Origin: Fimicolochytrium jonesii | Taxonomy: Eukaryota | Reading direction: 5' to 3' | NCBI RefSeq assembly: GCF_025526975.1 | Contig: NW_026515680.1 | Coordinates: 558,001-622,000 of the forward strand | DNA length: 64,000 nucleotides | Part shown: piece by piece, positions 1,499 through 31,732 of the stretch | How positions within the stretch are numbered: position 1 is the first letter of the stretch | Layout of the letters: every line of letters starts with the position of its first letter | Position numbers and translations under genes: made by a program | Notes under the pieces: model-generated | The model's database searches: none | What the model saw: the letters and a program-made list of their open reading frames with translations, nothing else | Told to the model about the DNA's origin: nothing

Positions 1499-1612
1499 GG
1501 AGGCGTCATTTATTTTTTCACTTTTTTTTCCAACCGAAAATTCGTGTTCTCCGCAAGGTGACAACATGTAAAAGTTGTATAACTAATTTCACTTTGTCAC
1601 CCGTCGGAGAAC
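1499..1612 (+). repeat. Dispersed palindromic repeat copy 1 (67-bp core 1546-1612)
   Basis: GGAGGCGTCATTT leader, T-tract, then GTTCTCCG-N3-GGTGACAA-29bp-TTGTCACC-N3-CGGAGAAC. Confidence 0.95.
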
Positions 1613-1649
1613 GACGAATGTTTTTTTAATTAAAGCATTATATAAGGAC

Positions 1650-4631
1650 TTAATCGCAATTCAAGATATCGAACTCTTCGAATGATAGCAACGCTTCTGC
1701 TATCTTACCAAGTAACAATCCATTTGTGTCCCATGTGTACCGTTTCTTATTCTTACGTTTCTCTTTCGTTTTAACAATAATTGGTGCACAAAAATAAGCA
1801 TTGATGATCTTTGCGTATAGGTCCATTCTGTACGTTTTCGGTCGGTGAAACATTTTAAAAGATCTTTGTATGTCTCCAAAAGGTGAGTTACAGACATGCT
1901 CTGGTCTGATTTCCCCTTCGATTGTTAGATTATTGTCCTTGTAAAACTTGTGGACTATTGGGGCGCATTTTATGTCGTGATACAGTTCTTGACCTCGTTC
2001 TAACCTGCCAAAGTTATTTACTGCGTAGACGGTATCCCTGTACGTGTCCCAGTAGATTTCAACAAGGTTTTCAGTAACCACACTTCTAAATAGATTTCTG
2101 AATCTGAATTTTTTAACTTGAAGAATCTGATCGACATCTGCTTGGAGGGCTTCGATCAATCTTTCAAGTCTCTCACACTCTTCTCCTGAGATATCCTTAA
2201 TGTTATGCCATGAGAACATATTGAATCGACTGTCGAAACAGGCGCTTATTAAATGACGTGCATCCTTTTCCAATGCAAAGCATGTTTTGCTGCATAGTTT
2301 GATGTTACATAGATCTGCATACAATTTGAACAGATCCTGTGCCGATTTGTGATGTTTATCCGCGAAACTCTCTGAATCCATATGCGCGGCTAAGGTACGA
2401 AATCCATCGGATTGTGAAACAATCAGTCGATCCTGCTTTACTGCCTTCATGAAAGGTTCCGTAAACAGAATCCATATCTCATTCGAAAGTGGCCTCCGAA
2501 TTCTTGCCAGTAATTGGAAAAAGTCCCGGTACGATATACAAGCCGGATTGAAAATGCCAAAAACCCGGTCAAACGGGCGCATCCCTTCTTTTACATCATA
2601 ATTCACGCCCACCGCTAAAGCAGCGTTTCCAACCACCACTCGCACAGCCGGATTTCCCCATACCTCCTCAATATTTCTCAGATTCTCCTTGTCTTTTTTG
2701 CGATCCGCGTGGATACCAATTATTTCTGTTCCACGTTTCCATTTGTATTTTGCCATTAGCGTCGAAACAATGTTTTCCACCCCATCAAATGCGGAATGAA
2801 CCTTTCGGGAACCTTTTGCTCCCGATGCGATAAAGATCTTTTCCCCTTTATCCAGACTGTTGAACATTTTCGCATAAAGATCTTCTATTTCTTTGCAATA
2901 CTTGATCTCTCGTTGCGGAGGAGGAACACTCGATCCAATAATGAAACTTTCACCTCCAATGTCTCGAATCAAATCGGTTGTCGCTCTAGTAAGAAACCCG
3001 TCCATCCAAATTACCTTCTTTGCTGACGCCAACAGGCGCATGAAATTCTTCCAATGTTGAGATGGGTTACCATGGCATTTTGCATCGTCCGCAAAACTTC
3101 GCAATAACGTTTCGCACTCATCAATGACAATTATATCGTAAACTCCCCTTGCTAAGTAGATCGACTGAATGGAACATACGAGATAGGGATGATGCACTGG
3201 ATTTTGTTTCTCATCGGGTCTGTAATCCAGATAATATTTCCATTGGGTGATGCCTGTTTTTTCCATTCTTCCTCTTTGTTCATTTGTCAACGCAATTCTA
3301 CATGTTGTCCAAAGCGCTGTCAATTCTTTGTCCCCCTCCAATAATTCTTTGAGATAATCAATGGTACTTCCACTTTTGTTACCGCCGAGCGAAACATGCA
3401 ATACAATGTGTTTATAATTGTCACCCAAGTGAAGATCCGCTGAGGATAACCATCTTGAGTCAATGCGATGATTGAACTCTTTGTTTATCGCATTTTCCAT
3501 TACTTTGTATGGCGTCGACTTTAGAATGTTTCCGTTATAAACAGCAACCAAACACGCTTTCATGAAGTTCTCCGAAATGGGCTTCGACTGTACATCCACC
3601 CGATTCCAAAAGTCTATATATTTTGCTTTGCGTTGCGGAGTGCTATCCTTTTTCGAATTCCACTCCCAAAACGACGCAAAGGTGATACCTGCCATCTTAC
3701 ACCAACGACCGATCTCACTGCATAACCAGTTGGACAATTCAAACGTATCCCCACGTTTAGGGTTTGGCATGTGCGCTAGAAAATGCAGCGGATCCCCTCT
3801 ATAGATATCTAGGGTTTCCGGAGGTTCCAAGTTCATTCTCGGTATTTGACCCGGATAGTAGCGACCTTTTCTCGCTTGTACCGAGCCCTCGTCATTTTCT
3901 CGTGTTCTCTTCCGGAGCGCTGGAGCCCCGGTCGATAGAAAGTTTTGAAGTTCGGAAACATTCTTTACGTGGATGCTGTCCTTTGGAATACCATGCATGA
4001 TCGTGTGATCCAAAATGTTATCAGAACCTTCTATTATCTCCTGGACTCGTCCGTCACCTTTGGATTGGTTTACATATTTCATCAAGCCGTTCGCTCTGTA
4101 GATATTCATGTCAAATCCAAGTTCCTTATACATGGCACAAAACTGCTTAATCGGGTCAAGTTCGCCCACATTCAGAACGTGGTAGTTATTCACAACAATG
4201 TGATATGAGAATTTCAGAGTATCGCCCTTTTCCCCCACACTTCCCGAAATATTCATGGAAGCATTCGGAAGAATCGATCGAATCCTTTTTTTTACCTTCT
4301 TAATAGGATCATTCCAAAGATTTCCCGTATAATCAATATCAAACATTAGTTTCATCATTCTATCAGGATGCATAACTTCAAATAGTCCTTTGTCATCTTT
4401 CAGCAAATCCTCCAGTTTAGAGCATTCTACGATCGCATATTGGCAGTACTTTTTCTTCACCATCTCACCTTCCTTTTTTCCCTTTGCTTCATAATCTCAA
4501 ACATGGGCAACGAGGCATTGCTCAGGCCCACATCTCTCCATCAACGTTTCCATAACCTTTTTCGCTGTGTTCCTATTGGTGTAGAATGATAGACCATACT
4601 TATTGATTTTGGTGTAATTTGCAATATCCAT
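1650..4631 (-). CDS. AEP primase-polymerase fused to UL9/origin-binding-protein-like SF2 helicase (937-aa ORF 1650-4463; N-terminal extension from ATG 4631 broken by a frameshift and a TGA)
   Basis: AEP motifs KLMFDIDY, KFSYHIVV and FDMNIYRANG. SF2 motifs SLGGNKS, IVIDECE, WMDGFL, ALAVGVNYD and QLLARIR, the arrangement typical of UL9-like helicases. Confidence 0.8.
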
Positions 4632-4786
4632 TGTGTGTGAATTGGATGTTTAACAGATACATAATTTTTCTGCTTAAATAAACTTTACCTGTCTACATCC
4701 ATTCGACAATCAAATATCATTTCTGACGTTCTCCATCTCAATCGAATAGTTACTGTCGTAATAGTTTCAATTTCAAGGATCGAGTT

Positions 4787-4899
4787 GTTCTCCGATTGGT
4801 GACAAAGTGAAATAAGTTATACGACTTTTACACGTTGTCACCAATCGGAGAACAAGAATGTTCAGTTTGGAAAAAAACGGAAAAATAAATGACGCCTCC
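4787..4899 (-). repeat. Dispersed palindromic repeat copy 2, inverted (core 4787-4853)
   Basis: Reverse complement of the same leader plus core; nearly identical to copy 4. Confidence 0.95.
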
Positions 4900-4959
4900 C
4901 TACACCGCACCATTAGATTTTCGGTTTGGCTGTCAATACGACTATATGGAGTCCAAATG

Positions 4960-5081
4960 GGAGGCGTCATTTATTTTTCCTTTTTTTTCCAACGAGAAAC
5001 GTGTGAGAAGCATTGTTCTCCGCAAGGTGACAAAGTGTAAAAGTCGTATAACTTATTTCACTTTGTCACCAATCGGAGAAC
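4960..5081 (+). repeat. Dispersed palindromic repeat copy 3 (core 5015-5081)
   Basis: Same leader and 67-bp core; sits back-to-back with copy 2. Confidence 0.95.
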
Positions 5082-5132
5082 GATTGGGGCTCGCGGTTAA
5101 ATGGCGTAAAACACTTTATCTCACAACAATAA

Positions 5133-5390
5133 ATGGACGAATTCTACAGAAAACACAATATAAACGAAGAGGAGGTTTCGGCCGAACTTTTCAAGAAGGA
5201 GATAATGGATGAGATTCTTGAAAAATTTGATAAAGGTGAATTGACATACAAAGGGAAAGGGGGTGTAGAATTACAAGTGACTTCTTCTAAACAAGCGTAC
5301 GCAATGGCATGTACGATATCAGATAAAAGGTGGAAAAGGAGGAAGAACAATCAAGAATCAGTGGGGAGTTACTTTCGGAAGATTGCTTAG
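5133..5390 (+). CDS. Small hypothetical viral protein (85 aa)
   Basis: ATG-initiated ORF after an A-rich leader; plausible charged composition; tiles with neighbouring ORFs. Confidence 0.55.
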   Translation: MDEFYRKHNINEEEVSAELFKKEIMDEILEKFDKGELTYKGKGGVELQVTSSKQAYAMACTISDKRWKRRKNNQESVGSYFRKIA

Positions 5391-5572
5391 TCGCTATCAG
5401 CATCCAACTTGAAATCGACCGGTTCCTTTTTCTTCAAATAACATTCATAACAATACGGTCGGTGTTTGATGAACGGAATCGTGGTTGTGCAATTATCCAT
5501 TTTACACTTACGAGTTCCCAGCGGATATATGATTTGACCTGCGGGGTTTCTTTTCGGATAGTACGGACGCAT
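5387..5572 (-). CDS. Small C4 zinc-finger protein, homolog of 27953-28141
   Basis: MRPYYPKRNPAGQIIYPLGTRKCKMDNC...YCYECY aligns with MRPWYPKRSPSGKIINPKGTRQCKTAEC...YCYDCW in element B. Confidence 0.8.
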   Translation of the reverse strand: MRPYYPKRNPAGQIIYPLGTRKCKMDNCTTTIPFIKHRPYCYECYLKKKEPVDFKLDADSD

Positions 5573-5692
5573 CGTTTCTTTGCTTTTCATTGCAATTAGA
5601 CCATCAGAAACGTATCTATTTAAGTTGCATTTTAGCAATCCCGTTTATGACAACTTGAAACGCGTTATGTCACTGAATGTAAATCCATAAAT

Positions 5693-7195
5693 TCAGTCAA
5701 TTCTGACCTTTTTGACAGGTCGAGTGGGCATTTGTTGCGTTTTTGTAGGGCGTTTTCGGATGCTTACAGTAGGTTCAACATCCGCGACGGTAAATGTTGG
5801 AGGTATCGCATAATCGATTCTTTCCTTTCCGCGTAGATTTGCGATAGGACGCAAGAATGAGGCTTTTTCTTGTTTCTTAACACGGGAAGCCACTGGATCA
5901 ACAATGGTCTCAACTCCAACATTTGCTTGAACTATTCGATGCATTCTAGATCGTTCCAAAACTTTTGGATCTATTAATTGAATTTCGTCTGCATCATCAA
6001 TCTTTCGTCGCTTTGATGACGGTTCCTTTCTTAGAGAAACCTCCGCTTTTCGTTTAACAGCGGGATTAATGGCTAACTCATCAGTGCGAGCACCGATTCG
6101 GGCTTGGGGTCTTGGTGATGGGATTGTGTTATCTTTAGCGAGTGCGGACAATCTCCGTCTTGCTGCGCCATCATCGTGTACCTCAATGTTAATTCCATCA
6201 GAAAATCCTACCAATTCCTGCTTGTTAAGTGTGGATTGCAATAGTGAGTCTTCTAATCTGTTCTTTATTCTTCGTTTGGTCGGATCAAAACGACGATCTT
6301 TCCTCACATTTCCAATAGGCGTCTTTCCAGGGGTTCGAACGAGATTACTCGTAACTTGTGTTTTTGATAAGAGTTCCTCAACCTTATTCGGGTCGCTGAT
6401 GGTGGTCAAAGCGATTTCTGGTTTGTTTTCTGCTCTTTCATTCCCAATATTGATCTCCGGAGGTATGTTATTTTCAATTTTAACTTCATCTTTTCCGATC
6501 ATATTAGGAAACGATCCGGGCATCATTGGCTCTTGATAATCAAGAGAATTGCTTACAACAGGTGCTTTAAGAACAGATGAACTTCCGGTTTTGACTTGGG
6601 CTGCTCCAGTAAGGTTATCAACAACGATCTCTTTTTCGTGCGTGATTATAACTGGGTGGACACGTTGACCGGACACATTCTTTGGCAAATCTGGGACTTC
6701 ATGTAGGTTAGCCGGTGCTTCAAACATCAAGCCGGTTTGCGCAGTTGTTTGCGCATCATAGTTATACACCCTACCTTCCGTGTCGGGGACGGGAAGGCCA
6801 CTCGTCGATGTGCTTGTCCCAATTGTGACGGTCTTGTTTCGCCGAGATGGTGTGATGCTATCCAGATAGCGTTCTTTAGCGCGATAGTCCTTCTCGGCTT
6901 TGATATATTCTAGACCATCTTTGTATGCTTGGGTATAGTGCTGTTTTGCAGATAACCGGAGGATTTCGGCGCTGGAAACACGCTCTTCATAAACTGGTTT
7001 GACATAATGTGTTTTGGTTGCAAGATCTTTGTCGTGGATGTTTCTATTCCAAGAATAAATGACATCTGGCCTTCCATTCTCATCTAGATTATTATAGTCA
7101 AGGGCTCGTCCGATTTGGTGACGCTGGAGATTCGGGATTCCTTTTGACCTGTTGATCCCTTGGAATTCCAGCACGTTTGCTTTATAGAATGCCAT
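5693..7195 (-). CDS. Hypothetical viral protein (500 aa) with low-complexity region and basic C-terminus
   Basis: Long intact ORF; NLS-like basic clusters (PSSKRRKID, PVKKVRID). Confidence 0.7.
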   Translation of the reverse strand: MAFYKANVLEFQGINRSKGIPNLQRHQIGRALDYNNLDENGRPDVIYSWNRNIHDKDLATKTHYVKPVYEERVSSAEILRLSAKQHYTQAYKDGLEYIKAEKDYRAKERYLDSITPSRRNKTVTIGTSTSTSGLPVPDTEGRVYNYDAQTTAQTGLMFEAPANLHEVPDLPKNVSGQRVHPVIITHEKEIVVDNLTGAAQVKTGSSSVLKAPVVSNSLDYQEPMMPGSFPNMIGKDEVKIENNIPPEINIGNERAENKPEIALTTISDPNKVEELLSKTQVTSNLVRTPGKTPIGNVRKDRRFDPTKRRIKNRLEDSLLQSTLNKQELVGFSDGINIEVHDDGAARRRLSALAKDNTIPSPRPQARIGARTDELAINPAVKRKAEVSLRKEPSSKRRKIDDADEIQLIDPKVLERSRMHRIVQANVGVETIVDPVASRVKKQEKASFLRPIANLRGKERIDYAIPPTFTVADVEPTVSIRKRPTKTQQMPTRPVKKVRID

Positions 7196-7244
7196 TTACC
7201 TAAAGGCATCAAATTTAATTCTGTGCCTATGTACAATAACAGAC

Positions 7245-7544
7245 ATGGCAAATTTCTTGAACAATCTGAAAAAAAAAGCGAATACTTTTATAACCAATGC
7301 TCCAAGTTATTATCACAAGGCGCGTTCATTTGCAAACAACGCTGTGAAGGTGGGACATAAAAGCGCAAAATTCATCACAAATGTTAACAATGCTGTGCAA
7401 GAATCTCCACTCTTCAACGAGAAGATCAAAGAAACTTCGCGTCGAGTGGATTCCACTGCAACAAAGGGGATTCACAGACTCGATGAGATTAATAGACAAG
7501 GTCAGGATTTCTTAGACAAAGTACAAGGTGGGACGATCGAATGA
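7245..7544 (+). CDS. Small basic amphipathic protein (99 aa)
   Basis: Intact ORF divergent from the 500-aa gene; helical N-terminus MANFLNNLKKKANTF. Confidence 0.6.
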   Translation: MANFLNNLKKKANTFITNAPSYYHKARSFANNAVKVGHKSAKFITNVNNAVQESPLFNEKIKETSRRVDSTATKGIHRLDEINRQGQDFLDKVQGGTIE

Positions 7545-7548
7545 AGTG

Positions 7549-9693
7549 TTAGGGGATGTGCTTTAGGATGTACTCGATTGTAGGTACGTTCATAGCGTTT
7601 CCAAGTAATCGCTTTCTACTTTTATCAGGGACAAATGCGGTGTATCCCACGGGAAACCCTTGTAACTTCTCGCGTTCCGAGCAGGTCAAAAGCCTGAATA
7701 CTCCATTTGCAGCGATAGCCAATTCATAACACTCGGTCGCTATGATGGTGTTACTTTTTCCATCGTCCCGAAATTTCACTGTTTGCTCCACCGTGTCCTT
7801 GTTGAACGCGGCAATGAGATCTGGGGGAGGAGGTTGTTTGAAGCATTTCCAATGGAGCGACTTTCCGGAATGATTGGGTTCTACTATACTGTCAATTGTC
7901 GGCGAAGGCACATCCAAAGGTTCCGGAACAAAGAAATTTGTCCAGTATAAACGGATTCGATTTTGTGCACAAAACGACGCGGCATTGAGTTTTTGCACCG
8001 TCGTAGACAAAAGTCCTTTCGAGATCTCCGCAATGCTTGCTGAATCCATAGGAACGTTTTCCATAATCACATATTGGGGTTGACAGTCGTTGCGGATTCT
8101 GACGAATTGTGTATACAAATCCGCCCGAGGATCGGTGAATTTAGTTTTTCCCGGATTGGCAAGCGAAAAAGGTTGACACGGAGGACCTCCGATTAACAGG
8201 TCAAAATCCGGTATGGTATTTGTTTTGATTTTGGTGATGTCTCCAAAGTTTTTATGTCGAGGATGATGCTCAACATAAACTTTTAAAGCGTCTTTATCTG
8301 TCTCGCAAAAGCCAACGCAAATGGCTTCGGGAAAGATTTTTCTTAATGCCATTTCGGCACCACCGATTCCAGCAAAGGCAGAAAAGTACCGCAATGGTCT
8401 TTTCTCGGAAATCTCCAGAATCCTTGGTATGCGCGTATTTAATCCGGGAATAAATCCATGGGTTCGAAAGACCTCGATGAATTTATCTGTATGTGGATAA
8501 TCTGCATCCGAGTCAATATACACGATCGTGCGTGAATAGACATCGTTCGAGATATGTGAATTCTTTGCCGAAAATCGCATGTCGTCCATTCGAACCTTTG
8601 CAGCGGCCGTTTTATCCCACGGGACTTTTCTCGTAAGGTGGCAACAAAGTCCCCGTGCGAGGGCGAACCTGCACCATTTCCGGTATGGACAATTCGGAAT
8701 GATTGCAATGATCCGTTTGATGTTTCCCTTTTTCATTTCCAACATTGTCTTTTCCCAAAAGTCGTTATGGAGGTAAGGTCTTTTCGCAGAAGTTTTCGGA
8801 CCATGTTGTAGAGCGTCGATTGCAGCACCAGGTGCATTAAGATAAACCCAATTGCTTTTTGTCCAATCAGACAACGTCAAAGCGTTGACAAATGTTCCGT
8901 CGACTTGTTCACCGTATACGGTTTTTGCAATGATCTTTGACTCGGGATTCCAGCACGGATCAAGATCAATTTCGCCACAAAATTTGGTGATCAGATTCAC
9001 CAGATATTGGGGCGTAATATACTCGTTTTCGGATCTTCCAAATCCAGTAGATATCGGAATATTCGGTCGTTTGGTAGTCTCCGAATCATCTTCGTCTGAG
9101 GTGTCTTGAGTAACCTCTTTTCGCTTTCTTAATCGGGAACTCCAATCTACTTCGTTCGTATCCCTTTCATTTTCGATCACATCTTCAATCTCTGTATCTT
9201 CATCTATCTCTTCATCTATCTCTGTGCGAGTGGTATCGTCCAACTGGAGACCGGGTTCGCCCGAAAGGTCAATGGCGGAATCGGGTGGTAGGTCTTCAAA
9301 TATTTCATCCATTTTGACCGCAATGACCATTTGACGAGAGCCAAAGTATTGAACCGCCTTTCTCCATATCTCAACATGAGTCAAATTTCGCTCTTTGTGA
9401 AGTTTATCCAACATGAGATAAAGCCCGATAGCGCAGGGCATTTTGTCCCGACCGAGTGTTTTCCCCATTTGAATAATAATTCGTCCGGCGCGGGAAAAGT
9501 TGTAACCGGCCGCTCTCGAAAGTTTCCATCTCGCTTTCAAATAATCGTCCGCTGCAGGATACGAAACCTTGTATAATTTCGCATCCAGTATGTGATGCAA
9601 AGCAATGCAGGTCTTGAGAAACCCGTCTCCGACATCAGGATTGATAATGAAATAAGTTGGGTCGATGTTTGCTTCATGAATGGCGAGAGCCAT
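7549..9693 (-). CDS. DNA methyltransferase fusion: N-terminal helical domain, phage Dam-like N6-adenine MTase domain, C5-cytosine MTase
   Basis: C5 motifs FAGIGG, GGPPCQPFS, MENV, QNRIRLYW, RLLTCSEREKLQGFP and LGNAM. Middle domain EYITPQ...DLDPC...VYLNAPG resembles phage Dam with an altered NPPY motif. Confidence 0.85.
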   Translation of the reverse strand: MALAIHEANIDPTYFIINPDVGDGFLKTCIALHHILDAKLYKVSYPAADDYLKARWKLSRAAGYNFSRAGRIIIQMGKTLGRDKMPCAIGLYLMLDKLHKERNLTHVEIWRKAVQYFGSRQMVIAVKMDEIFEDLPPDSAIDLSGEPGLQLDDTTRTEIDEEIDEDTEIEDVIENERDTNEVDWSSRLRKRKEVTQDTSDEDDSETTKRPNIPISTGFGRSENEYITPQYLVNLITKFCGEIDLDPCWNPESKIIAKTVYGEQVDGTFVNALTLSDWTKSNWVYLNAPGAAIDALQHGPKTSAKRPYLHNDFWEKTMLEMKKGNIKRIIAIIPNCPYRKWCRFALARGLCCHLTRKVPWDKTAAAKVRMDDMRFSAKNSHISNDVYSRTIVYIDSDADYPHTDKFIEVFRTHGFIPGLNTRIPRILEISEKRPLRYFSAFAGIGGAEMALRKIFPEAICVGFCETDKDALKVYVEHHPRHKNFGDITKIKTNTIPDFDLLIGGPPCQPFSLANPGKTKFTDPRADLYTQFVRIRNDCQPQYVIMENVPMDSASIAEISKGLLSTTVQKLNAASFCAQNRIRLYWTNFFVPEPLDVPSPTIDSIVEPNHSGKSLHWKCFKQPPPPDLIAAFNKDTVEQTVKFRDDGKSNTIIATECYELAIAANGVFRLLTCSEREKLQGFPVGYTAFVPDKSRKRLLGNAMNVPTIEYILKHIP

Positions 9694-9790
9694 TTTGTTG
9701 AAGAGTTTTTATGTTTGGACATTCTTGTGGAAATCGGTGGTTCCAAAGGAATGTAGTTGGCGATATTACGTAAACGCGCTTTGACAGGGG

Positions 9791-9903
9791 GGAGGCGTCA
9801 TTTATTTTTCCGTCTTTTTCCAAACTGAACATTCTTGTTCTCCGATTGGTGACAACGTGTAAAAGTCGTATAACTTATTTCACGTTGTCACCAATCGGAG
9901 AAC
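9791..9903 (+). repeat. Dispersed palindromic repeat copy 4 (core 9837-9903)
   Basis: Same leader and core; lies between the MTase start and the capsid gene end. Confidence 0.95.
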
Positions 9904-9970
9904 AACCAGGTGCCATTTGAATCGTTGAAACAAGTCGGGATTTGCTTGATAGAGATGGAGGTTATGCTAA

Positions 9971-11211
9971 TTATACCACACTGACTACATCCCCGATCGC
10001 GAGTGTGACATTTTCAAAGTAAGTGCTGAGAAGTCTGCATCGTTGACTAGGTGCGGGCGACGCATGTACGGTGTGTACTCGAAGTATGGAGTCGGTTCCG
10101 GTGAATGACAAAGCAGCACCGCTGCCTTCGGATTTGTCTTCAAAACCGTAAGAAAACGAGAAATTTGCGGTATCATAGTCTTTGAATGAGATGTCCATAT
10201 CAGCAAGTTGCTCAAAGTCGTTGTTGCTCAGTTGGGAAACAAGAAGCGTTTGACGATCATAAGGCCCGTGAGTAAAACCAGTTAGACCGCTTGGAATTGT
10301 CGCATTTGGTCCTAATTGGAGCCGCCATTCTCTTAGATTTTGAGACGAGAATGATTGTGACTTGTCCTTAGTTTGATCTGCAAGCACATCATCGTCTATA
10401 AATGACATTTCCAATCCGATAAGGGATCTAACGCCTGACATATGTAGGTTGAACGTATTTCTCAAGCCGCCGCTTGCGGCATTTTCTGTTTGAGTGGCGC
10501 GGACATAATCATAGTAGATACTTTTACCATCAGCGATTGCTCTTGTAGCATTAACAACTATAGATGGAGGTGGGGTAACGTACGGAATCAAACAGCGGAT
10601 GTTGCTGATTTGAAGTTCATCAACTACTCCAGCACTTGTAAAAACCGTATTGGGATCCGCAAGTACCAACTCGATGGTCATGGCCTGATTCGGAAGTGCC
10701 CACACGGGCAAAAATTGATCGTTAGTTGGGTGAAAAAATCCCAACCATGGGTGCATGCTAACGCTGGCTGTAGCAGTTCCGCTGAACATATCAGTGGAAC
10801 CATAACCGGTCAGATTTCCAAGTAGTTGTTTATGGCCTTTACTCATATTTCTGTATGCTGTACAAGGTACGCAGGATAATTCGGGATCTGAACAACTGTT
10901 TCGTTACCTGCTTTGACTGTGAGCGATTGTATGATAGATTCGATACCAAGTTTAGTATTAACGATTCCAGACCCAGATACAGGACTGTTATTCTTCAAAG
11001 CCGTGACGTCCATCGAAAGAATCAACTTTTGTAAAATGAACGAGACAGAATTGGAATCGCATTGGATTCTAATAGGTGTCAACTGACGCGTTTTCGTAGA
11101 ATACACATTTTGACCCGAAGGCGAAAAAGTTGCAACCCCTTCGCCACGAGGATCGCTGTACGGGCGGGAGAAAGTTTTCGTAGCAAACAGCCAGTTGTTA
11201 GGTACAGACAT
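9971..11211 (-). pseudogene. Major capsid protein (double jelly-roll, PLV type), frameshifted near 10855
   Basis: Two ORFs (10843-11229 and 9971-10846) are together colinear with the intact 407-aa ORF at 18796-20019 (VPNNW/VPSNW, IRIQCDSNS/IKIVIDSNS, LPNQAMTIEL/LPNQSVELT, DKS...NLREWR/DKS...NLKSWR). Confidence 0.75.
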
Positions 11212-11237
11212 GTTTACTAATAAGTACAAAAAAAAAA

Positions 11238-11723
11238 CTAGCCATAAATTCCACCGTAATAATCGTAGCCATCATCGTCGTCGTAGTCGGTGTCAAACTC
11301 AACATATTCAGTTTCTTGACTTGGTTTTGACCGAATTGCAGTCGGTTCATTAGGTGGAACTTTGATTGAACGTGCCCGTTTAGCGGTTTGTAATGTTTGC
11401 GGCTTTAATTTAGCCTTTTCCTCTTTTGCCAATTTCTTTGCGAGTTTCTCCTTTTCAAGAAGTTTTTTCGCTTCTTGGATCTTTCTATCTTCGTTTTCCT
11501 TTTTCTTCATAGCGGACAATTCTTGCAAGTTTTTTTTCCGTGTGGCGACGGCTTTCTTTAAAGCCGCTTCCTGTGCGGGTGTTCTTTGTTTTTTAGGTTT
11601 TAACTCTGGCTTTGGTGAAGGTGGTCGAATCTCCGGTATTGAATCTTGTACAGATTCTTGTACCGTTTCAGTATTGGCAGGAGAATCGGCAGAGGCACTC
11701 GAATGATTTGGATCTTCGCTCAT
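11238..11723 (-). CDS. Conserved coiled-coil viral protein, homolog of 20075-20554
   Basis: KKQRTPAQ motif, K/E-rich helix, C-terminal YVEFD...YYGGIYG, all matching the element B copy; syntenic. Confidence 0.8.
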   Translation of the reverse strand: MSEDPNHSSASADSPANTETVQESVQDSIPEIRPPSPKPELKPKKQRTPAQEAALKKAVATRKKNLQELSAMKKKENEDRKIQEAKKLLEKEKLAKKLAKEEKAKLKPQTLQTAKRARSIKVPPNEPTAIRSKPSQETEYVEFDTDYDDDDGYDYYGGIYG

Positions 11724-11777
11724 TTAACACGAGTTTTTATAAAGAAAACAAAATATTTAAGAGGAACATAGGTGCGG

Positions 11778-12500
11778 TCAGAGATCGTCTACATCGTCTA
11801 GAATGGCGAATCTGACACTTAAAGGAGAATTCAATGATACTTCTGTTCCGGTAAGGGAATTGATAAGATGAAACTCGACTTGAGATATGGTCTGTCCAAC
11901 GGGAAGAAACTCGCCTGAATTTTCATATTGTACAATGTCCCCAAAACTATCAGGTACGATACTGCAACAGATTGATTGAGCGCTGTCGTTATAATCTAAC
12001 AAGATACTGGGTGCCTTTGCATTGAATGTTGGAAGTCAAAATGACAGGATATGAACCGCTTAAATTGACTAGGATTCTTCATCTCGTGAGAGGAACCGAA
12101 TCCAATATCAGCTCGACGGGACATTCCCATAAGAATATAGGCTGTTGACCCACGATTGCCAGGAAAGTATCTTGAAAGAAACAGAGTTGCTATTTACCGT
12201 TAACTTGCGTCTAACACCATCGAATGTAGCAGAGTATACATTAGAGCCAGCCGCGCTATTCATAGCGGTGGAAACAGCGTTTGGGAAGTCAACGATCGAG
12301 TAATTACCATTTGGGATCTTTGCGTACAAGATGGTATCCGAACCTTGTTGGGCAAATGCAATAGTGTCATTCACGTTACTTTCAACCAGGTCCCAATCTT
12401 GAAGGAAAGAGACGCTCAGTATTTTGAAAGCCTCAATCCGTCTAGGTTGGATGTTGTATGTACGTTGGGAGACACTAGAGTATAAAATTTCTGAATACAT
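11778..12500 (-). pseudogene. Minor capsid (penton) protein, about three frameshifts
   Basis: Fragments colinear with 20587-21336 (IPNGNYS/LPEGTYD, FDGVRRKLTV/YDGVTRRLTV, VPDSFGDIV/NPDSYGDIL). Alternative frames restore GNRGSTAY and VNLSGSYPVILTS. Confidence 0.75.
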
Positions 12501-12523
12501 TTAGTAATAAGGTAAGAGAATTA

Positions 12524-13232
12524 ATGTCTTACAAACCGAAACCGATCTTCCCAAAGAAAAACGAGGTTCGAAACAAAATCATTCCGATCGACATTCAGGC
12601 TCCTCCCATATGTAGTACACTTATCGCACCGCGCAAAAGTGGGAAATCCGCTCTTGTATGTGGATTGATCGAAGACGTTTATGCAAAAGTGTTTGACAGA
12701 GTGATAATAATGTCAGATACAGTCTTGTACGATAAGAGTATAAAACAATTGGCACAGAGCACTAAGCACAGGAACATCTTTTTCACAGACGAAGTGAATA
12801 ATACAATGATAGCCGAGATTCTGGAAGATCAAAAGTTGCTGGCGGAAAGTGGGAAATCTTTGCTGTTGTATATTGACGACGCTGGAGACAATGCTCAAGG
12901 GAAGGAGTTAAACAAAGAGTTATCTAAACTTTATACGAAAGGACGACACTTTCTCTGCTCCACCATGGTGTGCATCCAGTCCGTGAGCGGTCAACTGACT
13001 CGAAAGATGAAGAACAACACAACAGAGTTCATAATCTTTAAAAATAATTCGGAGGATATGGAATCTTTGGCGAAATTATTGACAAGTGCGTTTAAAACAA
13101 AAAAGAAGTTCTATCGTATCTTACGGAAAGCACAAGGAGCCGTATTCGTTTGCATATGTGAATTTGGCAGCGGATGATGCGCGAACGATGTACCGGTATT
13201 GCGACAAAGACGGGTTTCACGACTTTTTTTAA
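12524..13232 (+). CDS. A32/FtsK-HerA family packaging ATPase (C-terminus frameshifted)
   Basis: Walker A APRKSGKS, Walker B LYIDD, KGRHF motif, CIQS. Another frame gives EPYSFAYVNL...FF* ending at 13232. Confidence 0.85.
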
Positions 13233-13253
13233 ATTGTTGGTTTTTGAATAGAA

Positions 13254-13463
13254 ATGTTCTATATACCAGAAATTGTAACAAAGGAAACGTATGACACCGT
13301 ATTAGCAGCGCTTTCGCAAGATCGCCTTTGGTTAGACGTTAACGAAAACTCCAGAAAAGAAATACTCGAATCCTTACAGAAGGAAATGGCAGAAGCATTG
13401 GTACAGAAGATTTTAGACGACCAGGTAAAACCAAAAGTCACTAGGCGGAAAAAGACCGCTTGA
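13254..13463 (+). CDS. Small conserved viral protein, homolog of 22137-22376
   Basis: FYIPE..TKETYD..L..LSQDRLWLD and a basic tail, shared with element B. Confidence 0.8.
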   Translation: MFYIPEIVTKETYDTVLAALSQDRLWLDVNENSRKEILESLQKEMAEALVQKILDDQVKPKVTRRKKTA

Positions 13464-13720
13464 AGATTTCCGTCCCGAATATGACGAAAAACTATTCTAC
13501 GAGTTGAGCAACAAAGACTTCCGCGCGACCAAACTCCTGAGCCATTTTATTATTTTGGGTTGTGCATTTTCAGGCTTTTTCGAATCTTTGCCTATATAGC
13601 ATGACCTCTTTACTGAGCGCTCATGCCCGAGAAAAAGATTCAGGTGTTTTATCAATTTTTACCGAACAATGACAAAAATGACCAGAAACTGATTAAATTT
13701 CTGGTCAATAAGCAAAGATC
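13464..13720 (+). promoter_or_regulatory. Conserved non-coding block upstream of the integrase (element A copy)
   Basis: Aligns at nucleotide level with 22377-22655, including identical CTTCCGCGCGACCAAACTCCTGA; hairpin at 13679-13707. Confidence 0.6.
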
Positions 13721-15022
13721 AATGACTCCGCCGTTAACCCCGGAGCAAGAAGGGAAACTGAAAGCATTATTCTATGAAGGACGAAACTTCTATGGACGCG
13801 ATCGTCTATATTTCATGTTGCGGAAAGATCCGCAAAATAACATATCTCGAAGACAAGTAATGAACTGGCTATCGAGACAACCGATAGCACAGAAATTCAG
13901 GAGACCCGTTCGAGCGACTGGTGTACGTGCAATAGTTTCTACCTCATTAGGATCATTTCAATGTGATACAATGGATATGTCAAGCGATTCTTACAGAGGG
14001 TTTAGTGCGGTTTTCAGTATGATTGACACATTTTCAAGAAAACTCTACGGAAAAGCGATAAAGGGAAGACAGCAGCGGAATGCACAAGGGCACTACGCGA
14101 GATTATAAGGGAGAATCCCAATATGACATTCACGCGTTTAGTAAGTGACAATGGGGGCGAATTTGCAAACGTGTTTGACCAGTACTTAGAAAGTATCAAT
14201 GTTCCACATTTTACAACACGTCCACATCAGCCATGGTCGAATGGAATAATCGAGCGATCTAATGCATCTGTTCGTAAACAGATCTCCATATTCATGGAAA
14301 CAACAGGGAACAAGGACTGGGTAACGGCACTGCCCGGATTGATAGATTCGTTGAATTCCACTTTCAATTCAACTACGCGCAAATCACCGGATGAAATAGA
14401 GGAATCTGCTCCAGATTCTGCGACTCATTCAGAAGCGGGTGGTAATATTTTGCGTCGTGCGGCAAAAAGTGTGAATGTTCGTGGAGCAACAACTTTGAAG
14501 GTTGGAGAAACGGTGAGAAAGGTGTTTCCATATTCTGGAACAAACATTAAGAAACCAAGCAGGACAGGATACTTTGCACCGGAACTATACACAATCGCAG
14601 GTGTGGTGGCATCACCATATGAAAATCAATTACCATCCTACAAACTTAAAAGTCAAGATGGGACGATCGAGAAAGGACTTTTTGCAAGATCGCAATTATT
14701 GCTTGTACCTACACCTGACCAGCGTATCGAACGCCCACGGACTGTAGAGAATCTTGAACCACCGGATGATGGACAGGGTGAAGAGGACGAGGAAGAGGAA
14801 GCGATTCAACCCCCTCCCAGGCGGTCGGGGAGATTAAACAAAGACGTAGAATATGAAGTGGAATATATTGCAGATAAACGAACAAGAAAAGTAGGCAAAA
14901 GGACTATAGTCGAATATTTAGTAAAATATCGTAATTATCCATTAAGTCAATCGACATGGGAGCCAAGATCTAATATCAATGCTCCGGGTCTCCTGCGGGA
15001 GTTTGAGAGGAACCGGCGGTAG
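13721..15022 (+). pseudogene. Retroviral-type (rve, DDE) integrase with C-terminal chromodomain; frameshift near 14063
   Basis: FQCDTMD, VSDNGGEF and NGIIERSN form the DDE triad. Chromodomain EYEVEYIADKR...YLVKYRNY...STWEP. The second frame continues KTAAECTRAL. Confidence 0.85.
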
Positions 15023-16112
15023 GTTTCGGAACAGCATCACTGCAGTAGTTCAGATTTTCCTCCTCATTGTGGTGGCAATTGTCTGCTAGGAAAATGGAAG
15101 AGGCTCGCGAGATACCATTTTTACGGAGATGGGTGATCTGTACCTTGCGACAAAGACGAATCCCATGTTTTTGACCGCATGCCTTTTCCATAATCGCTTG
15201 AATGTGCTCTCGAAATGTATCCATCTTGAACTCCTTGCCTTTTGCATCCAGGAAGATCAGATTCCCTTCTTTGCGGAACTTTTGAATAAATCGAAGTAAA
15301 ATGTCACAGACGTATTTAGGATCCACATCCACAATATCGCTGTGCGGCGGAGCGGTAAAGAACTGCAAATACGACCCGTTCAGATCTTTATCCTCGACTC
15401 CGTCAATTTTCGCAAGTTTTCTTTTCTTGATGCGATCAGCCTTTCGATCATTCCATAAGATTGACGCATTTCCTTCCTTTTTCGGGTCCCTTTGATCAAA
15501 GATGAAAATATTGTCTTTATTCCAATCTACGCCATCCCGATTGAATATTTTCAAGTTTGCAAAGTTCGCGCGAACATTGTAAAAATAACAAACGAAAAGC
15601 CCAATGATTCCATCTTGCAAGGACTGAATCTGGTAAAGACTCGGAGTGTTCATATCGAAGATTTCCATAAGATTATCTTCATAATACTTCTTCATTGCCT
15701 TCATAACGGATTGCCAGTCTTCAATCCAAATTTCGGGTTGAATTCCTTGACGTCTCCTCGCATTATATTCGTTGTTCAATCTGTGAGATTCGTCCGCCAA
15801 AGGCTTTCTCGTCTTATCGAATAACTCGGGGCTTATATTCAATCTTTCATATCCCGCGTTTTTGAAGATCCGGTGGACTTTACCTATGGCATCGGACATG
15901 GATTTATTCGAGATCCCGTTCGGAGTGCGAGCAGAGATTTTGGATTTATTGATCAGACTTTTAACTTCATTCAAAGCGGATAATCGTTCAATCGAGTCAA
16001 ATACTCCATGTTGCTGAAATCGTTTAACTTCTCTAGAAGTATTCGCAAAATCAGCCTTATTACGATCCAGAAATTGAGACAAATCGGCGGTTTTCAATAG
16101 AAATTCGGACAT
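14976..16112 (-). CDS. Tyrosine recombinase (PLV type)
   Basis: NVRANFANLK (R), NDRKAD (K), GIRLCRK (xxxR), LADNCHH...NLNY (H, Y). Convergent with and overlapping the integrase 3' end. Confidence 0.7.
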   Translation of the reverse strand: MSEFLLKTADLSQFLDRNKADFANTSREVKRFQQHGVFDSIERLSALNEVKSLINKSKISARTPNGISNKSMSDAIGKVHRIFKNAGYERLNISPELFDKTRKPLADESHRLNNEYNARRRQGIQPEIWIEDWQSVMKAMKKYYEDNLMEIFDMNTPSLYQIQSLQDGIIGLFVCYFYNVRANFANLKIFNRDGVDWNKDNIFIFDQRDPKKEGNASILWNDRKADRIKKRKLAKIDGVEDKDLNGSYLQFFTAPPHSDIVDVDPKYVCDILLRFIQKFRKEGNLIFLDAKGKEFKMDTFREHIQAIMEKACGQKHGIRLCRKVQITHLRKNGISRASSIFLADNCHHNEEENLNYCSDAVPKPTAGSSQTPAGDPEH

Positions 16113-16229
16113 CTTTAATAGGTTTCCTTTTGAAATAAGGAAAGAATAAATTTAGGAACCTATAGTGCGGTCGCTTTTATGTAAATTAAGTTAATATCGA
16201 TAATGAAAATCCGATGATGTCAGGAGTTA

Positions 16230-16408
16230 TTATCGAGTGTAAGTTGTTATCGGATTTGGTCCTGGTCCCGCACCAAGATTTGTTTCGAGATGGATGACCG
16301 CTGCTCATGTGGTATCATTTCTTGACAGTTATCTCGAATGCAAGTTGTTATCGGATTTGGTTCCGGCACTAATATTTGTTTCGAGATGGATGACCGCTAA
16401 TCATGTGT
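16230..16408 (+). repeat. Two direct repeats of ~80 bp in the divergent intergenic region
   Basis: AAGTTGTTATCGGATTTGGT...ATTTGTTTCGAGATGGATGACCGCT..TCATGTG occurs twice. Confidence 0.85.
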
Positions 16409-16571
16409 TCTATCGAGAAGACCGGATTTCCTTGGCATTGCCTTTCCTTATGCAAGAAAGAGATCGGGATTTTGCCGTCTATAAATAGAGTCGCATGGAA
16501 AGAGGAATGTCGCATTGGAAGTTCCATTTAGAGTGCAATTCCTTTTATATCACACAACACAAACGCAAAAC

Positions 16572-16997
16572 ATGCCTCGGACACCCAAACAGAAAAACAA
16601 GCGTCCAAACTGCAGATCTAAAAACCCGGTTGATAAACGCCAGTATCACATCAACGCAATACGTTACAATATCTCGCAAAGGCTATTTTCAAAAAGGACT
16701 CAGAAGTTTTATCTCGGCGAGGATAGATGCAAACTCCGCTACGTCTTCTCAAAGGTCGCTTATCATGTGGATGGATTGAAGGAATTCACAAAATTCTGCA
16801 TCTATCCAGTTAAATGCAATGATAGCATGCGTGAAGAAGGTTGCCAGTGTATGGGATTTGTACGCATCTTGATCCTTCAAGTCAAACAGTTTTTGGAAAT
16901 TGCCAACATTGACAACGATGAGACAGTGCAGGAAGAGTTGCTCCGGTGGCGGGAAGAGATAGAAGACATTTGCTCTCATCTGAACTCTGATGAGTAA
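16572..16997 (+). CDS. Hypothetical Cys-containing viral protein
   Basis: Within ORF 16515-16997; likely ATG at MPRTPKQKNKRPNC. Confidence 0.5.
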   Translation: MPRTPKQKNKRPNCRSKNPVDKRQYHINAIRYNISQRLFSKRTQKFYLGEDRCKLRYVFSKVAYHVDGLKEFTKFCIYPVKCNDSMREEGCQCMGFVRILILQVKQFLEIANIDNDETVQEELLRWREEIEDICSHLNSDE

Positions 16998-17067
16998 TCC
17001 GTTAGATCTTGTAAATAGTGTTTTGAATAAGATATGGTCTTCATTGGATTGATGAAGGTGCGGGTGG

Positions 17068-17390
17068 GGAGGCGTCATTTAATTTCCCTCTTTTTTCCAA
17101 GAGGAACGGAGAGAAACGTGTGAGAGCATTGTTGTTCTCCGAAAGGTGACAACGTGTAAAAGTCGTATGACTTATTTCACTTTGTCACCTTGCGGAGAAC
17201 AACTGGGTAGAATGTGACTGTAGCAGAAACGAAAGAGTGAATGGAGGGGTGGGTGGGGAGGCGTCATTTATTTTCCCTCTTTTTTCCAAGAGGAACGGAG
17301 AGAAACGTGTGAGAAGCATTCTTGTTCTCCGAAAGGTGACAACGTGTAAAAGTCGTATAACTTATTTCACTTTGTCACCAATCGGAGAAC
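17068..17390 (+). repeat. Palindromic repeat copies 5 and 6 in tandem (cores 17134-17200 and 17324-17390)
   Basis: Two ~190-bp tandem units, each with the GGAGGCGTCATTT leader and the 67-bp core. Confidence 0.95.
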
Positions 17391-17708: not shown

Positions 17709-17837
17709 TACTATGGGATCCGGCAGAGCAGTTTCGAACTATGGGTCAGTCCATTCTCTACTATGGGAGTCTTCTTTTTTACTATAGGATCTGTCACAGT
17801 CCACCCTATGGTATATACCATAGGGTGGACTGTGACA
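17709..17837. repeat. Right terminus of element A: ACTATGGG iterons plus perfect 46-bp palindrome (17792-17837)
   Basis: TGTCACAGTCCACCCTATGGTAT|ATACCATAGGGTGGACTGTGACA, preceded by four ACTAT(G/A)GG motifs. Confidence 0.9.
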
Positions 17838-22136: not shown

Positions 22137-22376
22137 GTGGACTTAAAGTATAAGATGTTTGATAACATTTTCTATTTGCCAAATTCGCTAACCAAAGAAT
22201 CGTTTGACAAACTTCTAGAAGAACTATCACAGGATAGGCTTTGGTTAGACATGCCGGAGGACGTAAGGACGAGAACTTTACAGCAATGTAAGGAAGAAAT
22301 AGTTGTGAATATCGTTCAGTCGCATTTGGACAAGCAAGTTCCAGTTAAAACTCCAAGAAGAAAAAAGGCCGCCTGA
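22137..22376 (+). CDS. Small conserved viral protein (likely ATG at 22155)
   Basis: LSQDRLWLD motif shared with 13254-13463. Confidence 0.8.
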   Translation: MDLKYKMFDNIFYLPNSLTKESFDKLLEELSQDRLWLDMPEDVRTRTLQQCKEEIVVNIVQSHLDKQVPVKTPRRKKAA

Positions 22377-25490: not shown

Positions 25491-25548
25491 TGTCGGTTAC
25501 CACCCGGGTACTGTTTCTACATGTTGATATCATTTACTTTACAGTTAG

Positions 25549-31158: not shown

Positions 31159-31159
31159 G

Positions 31160-31713
31160 CGGGGGGCATTTTGAGAAGTGGGGCAAAGTGAAAATGCCCC
31201 CCTAGAGGAATGTAGAGAAGTGGAAAGAAAAGAGAGAGTGAGGACGGGATAATAGATGTAGGGGGGCATTTTGGCAGTTTCAAAACCTATGAGAGAATAT
31301 ATAAAAAGTATTTGAGAAGCAATAATGAGAAAAGAAGTGTGATTTGTGTGGGAGAGGGTGGGTTTGAAAATTGCCTTTTTGCCCCCCTACATGAAATATG
31401 GTATGGGCGAATAGATAGGAAGGGTAGTTTGGCTAGACGCATGTAGGGGGGCATTTTGTTTTGCCCCCCTTTTTCAAAAATGCCCCCGCAGACGGGAAAA
31501 AGATACAGGGGGGCCATTTTGGCAGTTTCTAAACCTATGAGAGGATATATGAAAAGTTTTGAAAAGAAGAATGAGAAAAGGATGTCTCTTTTTGGTGGTG
31601 AGAGTTGGTTCGAAAATTGCCTTTTTGCCCCCCTACATGGAACACGGAATGGGGAAGTATAGAAAGGTTGGTTGGACTCGACGCATGTAGGGGGGAATTT
31701 TGACTTTGCCCCC
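31160..31713. repeat. Subterminal tandem repeat of element B (two units, period ~245 bp) with inverted ATGTAGGGGGGCA / TGCCCCCCTACAT motifs
   Basis: Units at ~31256-31469 and ~31503-31713 share CATTTTGGCAGTTTC, GAAAATTGCCTTTTTGCCCCCCTACATG and GACGCATGTAGGGGGG. Confidence 0.9.
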
Positions 31714-31732
31714 TTTCCCAAATTGCGGAAGG

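What the first reader, a model, noticed from the sequence alone, without database searches (positions are those of the whole stretch)
1499..17390. Six dispersed 67-bp palindromic sites with herpes oriS-like architecture, in the element that encodes a UL9-like origin-binding helicase
Seen: cores at 1546, 4787 (inverted), 5015, 9837, 17134 and 17324. All are intergenic and exactly 67 bp: GTTCTCCG-N3-GGTGACAA, a 29-bp AT-rich spacer, then the inverted half-site, always with a GGAGGCGTCATTT/T-tract leader. The N3 triplets vary and are often not complementary (CAA/CGT, CAA/AAT, AAA/TTG), which favours protein recognition of duplex boxes over a perfect hairpin. Established: HSV oriS is two inverted UL9 boxes around an AT-rich spacer; baculovirus hrs are dispersed palindromic origins/enhancers. 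The repeats are absent from the visible part of element B, which has no UL9-like gene there. Inference: a multi-origin system read by the primase-UL9 fusion. Alternative: recombination sites that divide the genome into cassettes for the tyrosine recombinase (integron- or shufflon-like).
Basis: partly seen in the sequence, partly recalled or inferred. Interest (0 to 1): 0.85.

Follow-up and report, generated by a model that had tools for sequence, protein, structure and literature searches.

The report
Herpes-like replication origins in virophages
Six 67-base palindromes in a virus integrated in a chytrid fungus match a shared site design found beside the same primase-helicase gene in dozens of virophages and Polinton-like viruses, and gained or lost together with that gene, so they are likely the replication start sites that this enzyme binds; binding and replication are untested.

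Summary
The six 67-bp palindromes are real (12 exact half-sites; 0.7 expected by chance). They lie in a Polinton-like virus (element A) integrated in a chytrid, most likely Fimicolochytrium jonesii. Two copies flank its primase/UL9-like helicase gene.

Relatives at about 25% protein identity carry palindromes of the same design: about 60-80 bp, two-box arms with a variable linker, and an AT-rich TATA centre, beside the gene and dispersed. Repeated sites occur in 39 of 66 virophage/PLV contigs with this helicase, 1 of 39 with a D5 helicase, and 0 of 93 recombinase-positive contigs without it. Site sequence follows the helicase (partial Mantel r=0.37), not the recombinase (r=0.04). Near-identical genomes swap this gene plus sites for a D5 gene with a different, SaPI-origin-like iteron array. 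Element B has its own D5-type repeats.

Best reading: cognate origins of an exchangeable gene-plus-origin module, working like herpes oriS/UL9 but not a member of that family. The recombinase reading is not supported. No binding or replication was shown. My paper searches found no description. The scan noted a similar layout once before, on a giant-virus-like contig (e1-7839663).

The parts
1499..1612 (+). Site 1: leader (1499) plus 67-bp core (1546-1612), 37 bp after the stop of the primase-helicase gene; the most diverged copy
   Evidence: not found by the relatives' model at E<=5
1650..4631 (-). AEP primase / SF2 (UL9/R8-like) helicase gene. Open frame 1650-4463 (937 aa); an in-frame stop separates it from about 54 N-terminal residues present in other copies (P0001, 991 aa). 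AEP, Walker A/B and motif VI residues are intact in the open part
   Evidence: Herpes_ori_bp E 1.3e-8; HSV OBP E 3e-28
4787..4899 (-). Site 2 (inverted): core 4787-4853 plus leader to 4899, upstream of the helicase gene; with site 1 it brackets the gene in inverted orientation
4960..5081 (+). Site 3: leader plus core 5015-5081, back to back with site 2
7549..9693 (-). C5 DNA methyltransferase gene; its accession lies two numbers from the helicase's in each of the three other named copies
9791..9903 (+). Site 4: leader plus core 9837-9903, between the methyltransferase and the capsid module; 98% identical to site 2 over 117 bp
   Evidence: best hit, 31.7 bits, E 0.0008
9971..15022 (.). Capsid, minor capsid, A32-like ATPase and rve-chromo integrase module of element A; capsid, minor capsid and integrase frames are split in this copy
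   Evidence: intact paralogous capsid of element B resembles Preplasmiviricota/double-jelly-roll clusters
14976..16112 (-). Putative tyrosine recombinase; support is weak (R..K..R..H..Y-like motifs; E 0.019 to the virophage recombinase profile; hhalign probability 12%)
17068..17390 (+). Sites 5 and 6: tandem 190-bp duplication with cores 17134-17200 and 17324-17390, near the inferred right end of element A
17710..17837 (.). Inferred right end of element A: four short direct repeats followed by a perfect 46-bp palindrome ending in CA; a different repeat from the 67-bp family
   Evidence: the end is inferred by analogy with 31758-31966
31159..31722 (.). Element B's own repeat array right after its D5-type primase-helicase gene (28465-31158), including a 137-bp inverted repeat; the D5-type counterpart of the sites

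Best explanation
The six 67-bp palindromes belong to a site family that travels with the primase/UL9-like helicase gene of virophages and Polinton-like viruses, and they are likely the replication origins that this protein binds and melts. Inferred mechanism: helicase protomers would bind the two inverted arms as duplex DNA, each arm through two GC-rich boxes about one helical turn apart across a 3-5-bp linker whose sequence is free. ATP-driven unwinding would open the AT-rich TATA centre, the fused primase would prime, and a host or giant-virus polymerase would extend. Shown by comparison: the gene with its flanking sites occupies a slot that other genomes fill with a D5 helicase, often with an iteron array instead, and extra copies stand in other intergenic gaps in both orientations. 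Inferred: the extra copies act as redundant origins, as herpes oriS/oriL and baculovirus hrs do.
For: Shared design: over 38 related genomes, arm symmetry peaks 17-21 and 27-31 bp from the axis and dips at 22-26, where the window's N3 lies (23-25). A model built from 19 relatives without the window ranks 5 of the 6 window sites at the top of 64 kb. It hits 32 of 40 held-out helicase loci (one of them an unrelated terminal hairpin), 0 of 4 giant-virus loci and 2 of 39 D5 loci, both longer repeats. Co-occurrence over 213 de-duplicated contigs: 39/66 vs 1/39 (D5) vs 0/104 (no helicase seen); among recombinase-positive contigs 17/28 vs 0/93. On a 55-row recombinase tree, helicase type changes 10 times; in 9 independent pairs the sites go the same way 6.5 times and never the other way (median p 0.03). 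Site sequence follows helicase identity: r=0.49, n=51; r=0.37 given the recombinase (p=0.001), against r=0.04 (p=0.36) for the recombinase given the helicase, n=19. Near-identical pairs L212/L211 and L214/L216 swap helicase type at one slot; L211 has an iteron array there. D5 genes have their own longer inverted iteron arrays: 25 of 59 flanks score >=18, against 39/105 for this helicase, 5/74 for the recombinase and 2/73 for the capsid gene. That matches the SaPI rep-ori layout (PMC9371898 passages). The closest solved structure is HSV-1 origin-binding protein by profile (E 3e-28) and by fold, and oriS is two inverted boxes around an AT-rich spacer (PMC12543377 passages).
Against: No binding, melting or replication was measured. 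Linkage alone can make sites next to a gene follow its phylogeny; the distal copies (24 of 39 multi-copy genomes) argue against pure hitchhiking but do not prove use. 27 of 66 helicase contigs show fewer than two sites (20 show one, 7 none); many are fragments. Three loci with a distant relative of the helicase (L219, L229, L231; L219 at E 4.5e-31) show none by the geometric scan, and were counted as 'no helicase seen'; moved over, the counts are 39/69 and 17/31 vs 0/90. One D5 genome (L127) has three palindromes of about 89 bp that pass the scan. Two fragments whose nearest relatives carry D5 (L123, L079) have a site-like hit. The geometric scan was designed after viewing helicase loci, and held-out loci include kin of training genomes. 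The window's sites score only 14-32 bits, on geometry rather than box sequence, and site 1 is missed. The C-terminal domain could not be shown to be UL9's DNA-binding domain. One origin would suffice for a 20-kb genome.
Confidence: 0.7

Rival explanations
1. The sites are helicase-cognate but serve mainly as ends of a self-spreading module: replication started at, or template switching between, two sites would copy the gene-plus-sites unit into other small viruses and seed solo copies, like REP sites around a RAYT gene (recalled analogy). This is compatible with origin function.
For: 16 of 39 multi-copy genomes have a copy within 800 bp on both sides of the gene (8 inverted, 6 direct, 2 unclear). 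The module is swapped between near-identical genomes and occurs with both virophage and PLV capsids within one helicase clade. Arm alleles recur on either arm of different window copies.
Against: There is no nuclease or transposase domain in the protein and no target-site duplication is evident around 1499-4899. Orientation of the flanking pair is not fixed. In L212/L211 both alternatives fill one slot, which fits homologous module exchange.
Confidence: 0.14
2. The sites are transcription signals: operators for autoregulation by the helicase, TATA promoters, or hairpin terminators of the Mimivirus type (recalled).
For: TATA lies at the centre of 75 of 109 sites, and many copies sit within 50 bp of a stop codon or 100-300 bp before a start. 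All fold stably. The window's leader holds a T-tract and a TGACG-like motif.
Against: Sites occur in tandem (66), divergent (21) and convergent (16) gaps, in about the background proportions (140/35/24), so neither a promoter-only nor a terminator-only role fits. Sister genomes with D5 lack them in the matching gaps.
Confidence: 0.09
3. The sites are targets of the element's tyrosine recombinase and divide the genome into cassettes (integron- or shufflon-like).
For: Most complete helicase-carrying records also encode a recombinase (11 of 11 and 9 of 13 records at >=90% completeness, the latter including two giant-virus bins). Sites sit at module borders, in both orientations.
Against: 0 of 93 recombinase-positive contigs without the helicase have repeated sites. 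Sister virophages with 55-60% identical recombinases and D5 have none. Partial Mantel r=0.04. Record G029 (29.4 kb, 100% complete) has four sites, an rve integrase and no match to the recombinase profile. Element A's recombinase is itself only weakly supported.
Confidence: 0.04
4. The unit is a host MITE or other host repeat that invaded the provirus.
For: Multi-copy, palindromic and non-coding; the host genome could not be searched.
Against: No copy in the 32 kb of host DNA or in element B. The same design occurs in free virophage and PLV contigs from metagenomes next to the same gene. No target-site duplication is evident.
Confidence: 0.02

Closest known systems
HSV-1 oriS with origin-binding protein UL9 (PMC12543377, passages read; PDB 9HGI/9HGJ)
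   Same: Inverted recognition arms around an AT-rich spacer; several origins per genome; SF2 helicase core homologous (E 3e-28; top Foldseek and VIA match, Z 26.9).
   Different: Box sequence unrelated; arms are two-box with a free linker; no Box 3 equivalent seen; RVKNL motif absent; primase fused to the helicase; sites flank the initiator's own gene and move with it; 14-30-kb virophages and PLVs rather than a herpesvirus.
SaPI/PICI pri-rep-ori replicon (PMC9371898, passages read)
   Same: Cognate origin directly beside a primase-helicase gene, with opposed repeats around an AT-rich centre. The D5-type arrays found here in virophages and element B look like this.
   Different: SaPI Reps are hexameric self-loading helicases binding 6-12 short iterons, one origin downstream of rep, in bacteria. 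Here an SF2 helicase has one 67-bp palindrome, often on both sides of the gene and dispersed.
Baculovirus homologous regions (search listing and abstracts only)
   Same: Dispersed, intergenic, imperfect palindromes proposed or shown to act as origins and enhancers.
   Different: hrs are arrays of 24-30-bp palindromes with the transactivator IE1 as partner; no linked primase-helicase gene and no exchangeable module.
End modules of entomopoxvirus-associated PLVs (Barth et al. 2024, PMC11296320, passages read)
   Same: Hypothesis that inverted repeats beside a PLV primase-helicase are its origin and form an exchangeable module.
   Different: That work concerns terminal repeats, D5-type helicases and a shared role with the recombinase. 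It holds no occurrence of 'palindrom' or 'SF2'. Here the sites are internal, multi-copy and tied to the SF2 helicase, not the recombinase.
AEP-SF2 helicases of mimivirus R8, ASFV pF1055L and mriyaviruses (PMC11253617, passages read)
   Same: Same domain order: AEP primase then UL9-related SF2 helicase; mutually exclusive with SF3 helicases.
   Different: No binding site is given in the passages read; 0 of 4 giant-virus loci examined here carried the site.

Membership tests
Herpesvirus oriS/UL9 system | UL9-type SF2 helicase core | tested here: met
   Pfam Herpes_ori_bp E 1.3e-8; profile vs PDB E 3e-28 over both lobes; top fold match
Herpesvirus oriS/UL9 system | C-terminal DNA-binding domain homologous to UL9 536-851 | tested here: inconclusive
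   VIA aligns 491 residues (model 311-937, chain 22-818) against about 320 for other SF2 helicases, but rmsd is 12 A; profile of the domain finds nothing in PDB; single-sequence fold failed
Herpesvirus oriS/UL9 system | RVKNL recognition motif and oriS box sequence | tested here: not met
   Motif absent from the protein and from the conserved columns; window arms differ from the oriS oligonucleotide printed in PMC12543377
Herpesvirus oriS/UL9 system | Two inverted arms around an AT-rich spacer | tested here: met
Herpesvirus oriS/UL9 system | Sequence-specific binding and origin-dependent replication | not testable with these tools
   needs EMSA, footprinting and replication assays
SaPI/P4-type rep-ori replicon | Origin adjacent to the primase-helicase gene | tested here: met
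   site 1 lies 37 bp after the stop; copies within 800 bp upstream in 27 and downstream in 26 of 39 multi-copy genomes
SaPI/P4-type rep-ori replicon | Hexameric SF3/SF6-type helicase and an array of short iterons | tested here: not met
   the helicase is SF2 and each arm is a single two-box unit; the layout fits element B's D5 gene instead
Tyrosine-recombinase cassette sites (attC/shufflon-like) | Sites co-occur and co-evolve with the recombinase | tested here: not met
   0 of 93; partial r=0.04, p=0.36; G029
Polinton-like virus (host element) | Double-jelly-roll capsid, minor capsid, A32-like ATPase and integrase in a 15-40-kb element | tested here: met
   Pox_A32 and rve+chromo in element B and their paralogues in A; capsid look-alikes at score 0.98, with a recognition value under the tool's stated benchmark; A's left end lies outside the window
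Host MITE | Many copies in host DNA with target-site duplications | tested here: inconclusive
   none in 32 kb of host DNA; whole genome not held

The most novel reading that the evidence does not exclude
Virophages and Polinton-like viruses without their own polymerase replicate from interchangeable gene-plus-origin cassettes. The primase/UL9-like type reads a 67-bp two-box palindrome that spreads to several places in the genome once the cassette arrives, and may copy the cassette itself between viruses. This would be a minimal, still-mobile form of the initiator-origin pair that herpesviruses fixed as UL9 and oriS.
Probability: 0.4. Interest if true: 0.88.

Novelty: new variant of a known kind. 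Interest (0 to 1): 0.76.

Why it matters
How virophages and PLVs without a protein-primed polymerase start DNA replication is open. Replication-gene switching between them is documented (bioRxiv 10.64898/2026.06.19.733378, passages), but I found no named origin beyond one hypothesis about terminal repeats. These sites give a defined substrate for the primase-SF2 family of mimivirus R8 and related proteins, for which the passages I read name no site. About 50 natural protein-site pairs with different box sequences allow specificity-swap tests. The sites also give a DNA signature that points to helicase type in fragments, and a possible link between herpes oriS/UL9 and small eukaryotic DNA viruses.

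Tried and rejected
No whole host genome is held, so the three other named copies could not be read as DNA. No sequencing run was listed (no evidence either way), so joints between copies were not tested.

An exact half-site scan of IMG/VR gave 7 contigs with a single half-site each and no second arm; treated as chance. The single window protein found no related locus; alignments did. The putative recombinase had no homologue at E<=1e-3. A PLV-ATPase control scan could not be seeded, so the controls are virophage-rich and PLVs with D5 are under-sampled.

The first covariance model (5 pairs, mis-registered) found nothing in the window; the second used a hand-set 23-pair structure. Rfam had no match in 1-32000. 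The single-sequence fold of the C-terminal domain failed (pLDDT 32); the Atlas gave no hit above 0.77 for it. A sliding-window search for the protein region that best predicts site sequence gave no clear peak (partial r <=0.21). A divergent-recombinase search of four records was blank, without a positive control. Whole records beyond the fetched loci were not read, so copy numbers are lower bounds. No complex prediction was run.

Literature searches that found no description of these sites: (open-licence PMC and bioRxiv only; supplements not read).
Full report
OBSERVATION. The six cores are at the stated coordinates and are exactly 67 bp. Twelve exact half-sites occur against 0.71 expected at up to three mismatches, none in element B and none exact in host DNA. 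Each has the leader on the same side, 47, 46, 55, 46, 66 and 67 bp from the core start. The spacer is nearly self-complementary, so the units fold end to end. N3 is complementary in two of six copies.

SETTING. Bases 1 to about 31,970 are 40-44% GC and carry two capsid/minor-capsid/ATPase/rve-integrase modules in tandem (28-39% identical); host genes follow at 51-58% GC. Each element appears to end in four short direct repeats and a perfect palindrome (17792-17837; 31915-31965), so I place the A/B border near 17,840; this is inference. The helicase protein is 99% identical to a protein named from Fimicolochytrium jonesii, and its cluster has four members on four contigs. PLVs in chytrid genomes are mentioned in bioRxiv 10.64898/2026.06.19.733378 (passages). 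This copy is decaying: several frames are split and a stop cuts off the helicase N-terminus. The protein is an AEP primase fused to an SF2 helicase whose closest solved relative is HSV-1 origin-binding protein, the architecture described for mimivirus R8 and mriyavirus SF2 helicases (PMC11253617 passages).

RELATIVES. Profile scans returned 67 IMG/VR and 2 JGI loci with this gene at 21-30% identity. They include virophages (Sputnik-type capsid), PLVs and four giant-virus loci. Many carry a 60-80-bp palindrome just upstream and/or downstream of the gene, with further copies elsewhere (the outputs of 26 and 33 were partly cut). In 38 multi-copy relatives, arm symmetry and GC peak 17-21 and 27-31 bp from the axis, with an A/T linker of lower symmetry at 22-26; the window's N3 is at 23-25; 75 of 109 centres hold TATA. 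GC pairs were weighted in the scan, which may sharpen the peaks. Of 39 multi-copy genomes (window included), 16 have copies on both sides of the gene and 24 have distal copies. The window's leader is not shared; one-sided extensions in relatives are lineage-specific.

HELICASE OR RECOMBINASE. Controls were fetched independently of the helicase: 80 loci by virophage ATPase (best 80 of 99 confirmed, from a scan that stopped at 8 of 64 parts) and 80 by recombinase (best 80 of 417). After merging loci of one contig (213 contigs), two or more similar sites occur in 39 of 66 helicase contigs, 1 of 39 D5 contigs, 0 of 104 with neither gene seen and 0 of 4 giant-virus loci; among recombinase-positive contigs, 17 of 28 against 0 of 93. 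Three loci with a distant helicase relative and no site were in the 'neither' class; moving them gives 39 of 69 and 17 of 31 against 0 of 90. Because the scan was designed on helicase loci, I built a covariance model from 37 sites of 19 relatives. It hits 32 of 40 held-out helicase loci (7 near-duplicate loci were left out; one hit is an unrelated terminal hairpin), 0 of 4 giant-virus loci, 2 of 39 D5 loci (90- and 131-bp repeats of the other type) and 5 of 100 loci from 97 of the 104 'neither' contigs. All five are fragments; three have helicase-carrying genomes as nearest relatives and two have D5 genomes. In the window, the model's top hits are five of the six sites (14-32 bits), with one other hit at E 3.6. 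On a recombinase tree of 55 contigs helicase type changes 10 times, and nine independent pairs go 6.5 the same way and 0 against (median p 0.03; FastTree). Site sequence follows the helicase tree across capsid types and in Mantel tests. L212 and L211, about 90% identical beside the slot, carry site-helicase-site and iteron array-D5 respectively; L214 and L216 (96%) likewise differ in helicase, with the sites only in L214.

D5 COUNTERPART. A geometry-free search found strong inverted repeats in 39 of 105 flanks of this helicase (mostly 59-83 bp) and 25 of 59 D5 flanks (mostly 88-151 bp, with tandem short units on each arm), against 5 of 74 recombinase flanks and 2 of 73 capsid flanks from random samples of 40 genes each. 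Element B's D5 gene is followed by such a repeat. SaPI origins lie directly downstream of rep, with opposed iterons around an AT-rich centre (PMC9371898 passages). So the slot beside the primase-helicase gene holds a repeat whose design changes with the helicase type, which is what an initiator-origin pair predicts.

MECHANISM. Shown: the sites, their design, and their association and co-variation with the helicase. Inferred: binding of both arms, melting of the centre, priming by the fused primase and use as origins, by analogy with oriS, where UL9 dimers bind two inverted boxes and destabilise the AT-rich spacer (PMC12543377 passages). A hairpin step after melting is not excluded. The C-terminal domain is well modelled within the full-length prediction (mean pLDDT 84.9 overall) and its range is included in the alignment to UL9, but at 12 A rmsd and with no sequence support. 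Promoter-only or terminator-only roles fit poorly because sites occupy tandem, divergent and convergent gaps near background proportions. A role as ends of a self-spreading module remains open and is compatible with origin function.

NOVELTY. Seven searches found no description of these sites. Barth et al. 2024 hypothesised that terminal inverted repeats beside D5-type primase-helicases of entomopoxvirus-associated PLVs serve as origin and recombinase substrate (passages). A virophage review (PMC10301787 passages) and the Mycodnaviridae paper (PMC13533422 passages) had nothing on them. Subscription papers and supplements were not seen. REP/RAYT and the Mimivirus hairpin rule are recalled, not from calls.

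VERDICT. A real feature and a new variant of a known kind: it works like oriS/UL9 or SaPI rep-ori and is a member of neither. Confidence in the origin reading is 0.7; interest 0.76.

Noticed in passing
window 31159-31722; loci L080, L101, L107, L109, L137, L155, L161, L179, L184, L186, L195, L202, L204, L211, L217, L232: D5-type primase-helicase genes of virophages and of element B are flanked by 90-150-bp inverted arrays of short tandem units around an AT-rich centre, resembling SaPI origins; I found no paper describing them.
   Followed up: partly
window 17710-17837 and 31758-31966: Both elements appear to end in four short direct repeats followed by a perfect 46- or 51-bp palindrome with CA at or just after its end; these could be integrase ends or hairpin-end resolution sites.
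   Followed up: no
window 25357-25500: A 28-bp palindrome and several GGGGG(T/C)GTTT units lie just upstream of element B's second, 770-aa putative helicase gene (no Pfam hit); possibly a second iteron-like array. Element B may thus carry two helicase genes.
   Followed up: no
window 1499-17324 leaders: Leader-to-core distances fall in steps of about 10 bp (46, 46, 47, 55, 66, 67), hinting at helical phasing between a leader-bound and a core-bound protein; only six copies.
   Followed up: no
window 5015-5081 and 9837-9903: In copy 5015 a left-arm base matches the right arm, and in 9837 a right-arm base matches the left arm, suggesting arm-to-arm correction within the palindrome.
   Followed up: no
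window 13254-13720 and 22167-22657: The stretch between ATPase and integrase is 75% identical in DNA between elements A and B over about 300 bp, far above their 28-39% protein identity elsewhere.
   Followed up: no
window 2-1453: Element A encodes a repeat-rich protein with an adenovirus-fibre-like match (Av_adeno_fibre E 4e-13) that runs off the window start.
   Followed up: no
L045/L046 (one 17,388-bp contig): The contig is a perfect inverted duplication around a 90-bp AT hairpin with the helicase gene at both ends, and has no 67-bp-type site and no recombinase match; either a hairpin-ended replication intermediate or an assembly artefact.
   Followed up: no
L127:4995, 11109, 20626: A D5 virophage with three dispersed, about 89-bp palindromes, one right after the D5 gene; dispersal of the cognate site is not limited to the UL9-like type.
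   Followed up: partly
L219:11909-14824, L229:2366-5281, L231:1123-4038: About 970-aa distant relatives of the primase-SF2 protein without a detectable 67-bp-type site; possibly a subfamily with another origin design.
   Followed up: partly
window 41048-41524 and 56079-56332: Arrays of short repeats in host DNA (nine copies of a 26-bp unit around GAGGCATATGTCGAG; repeats around GCCCGTAAGCTTCCA).
   Followed up: no
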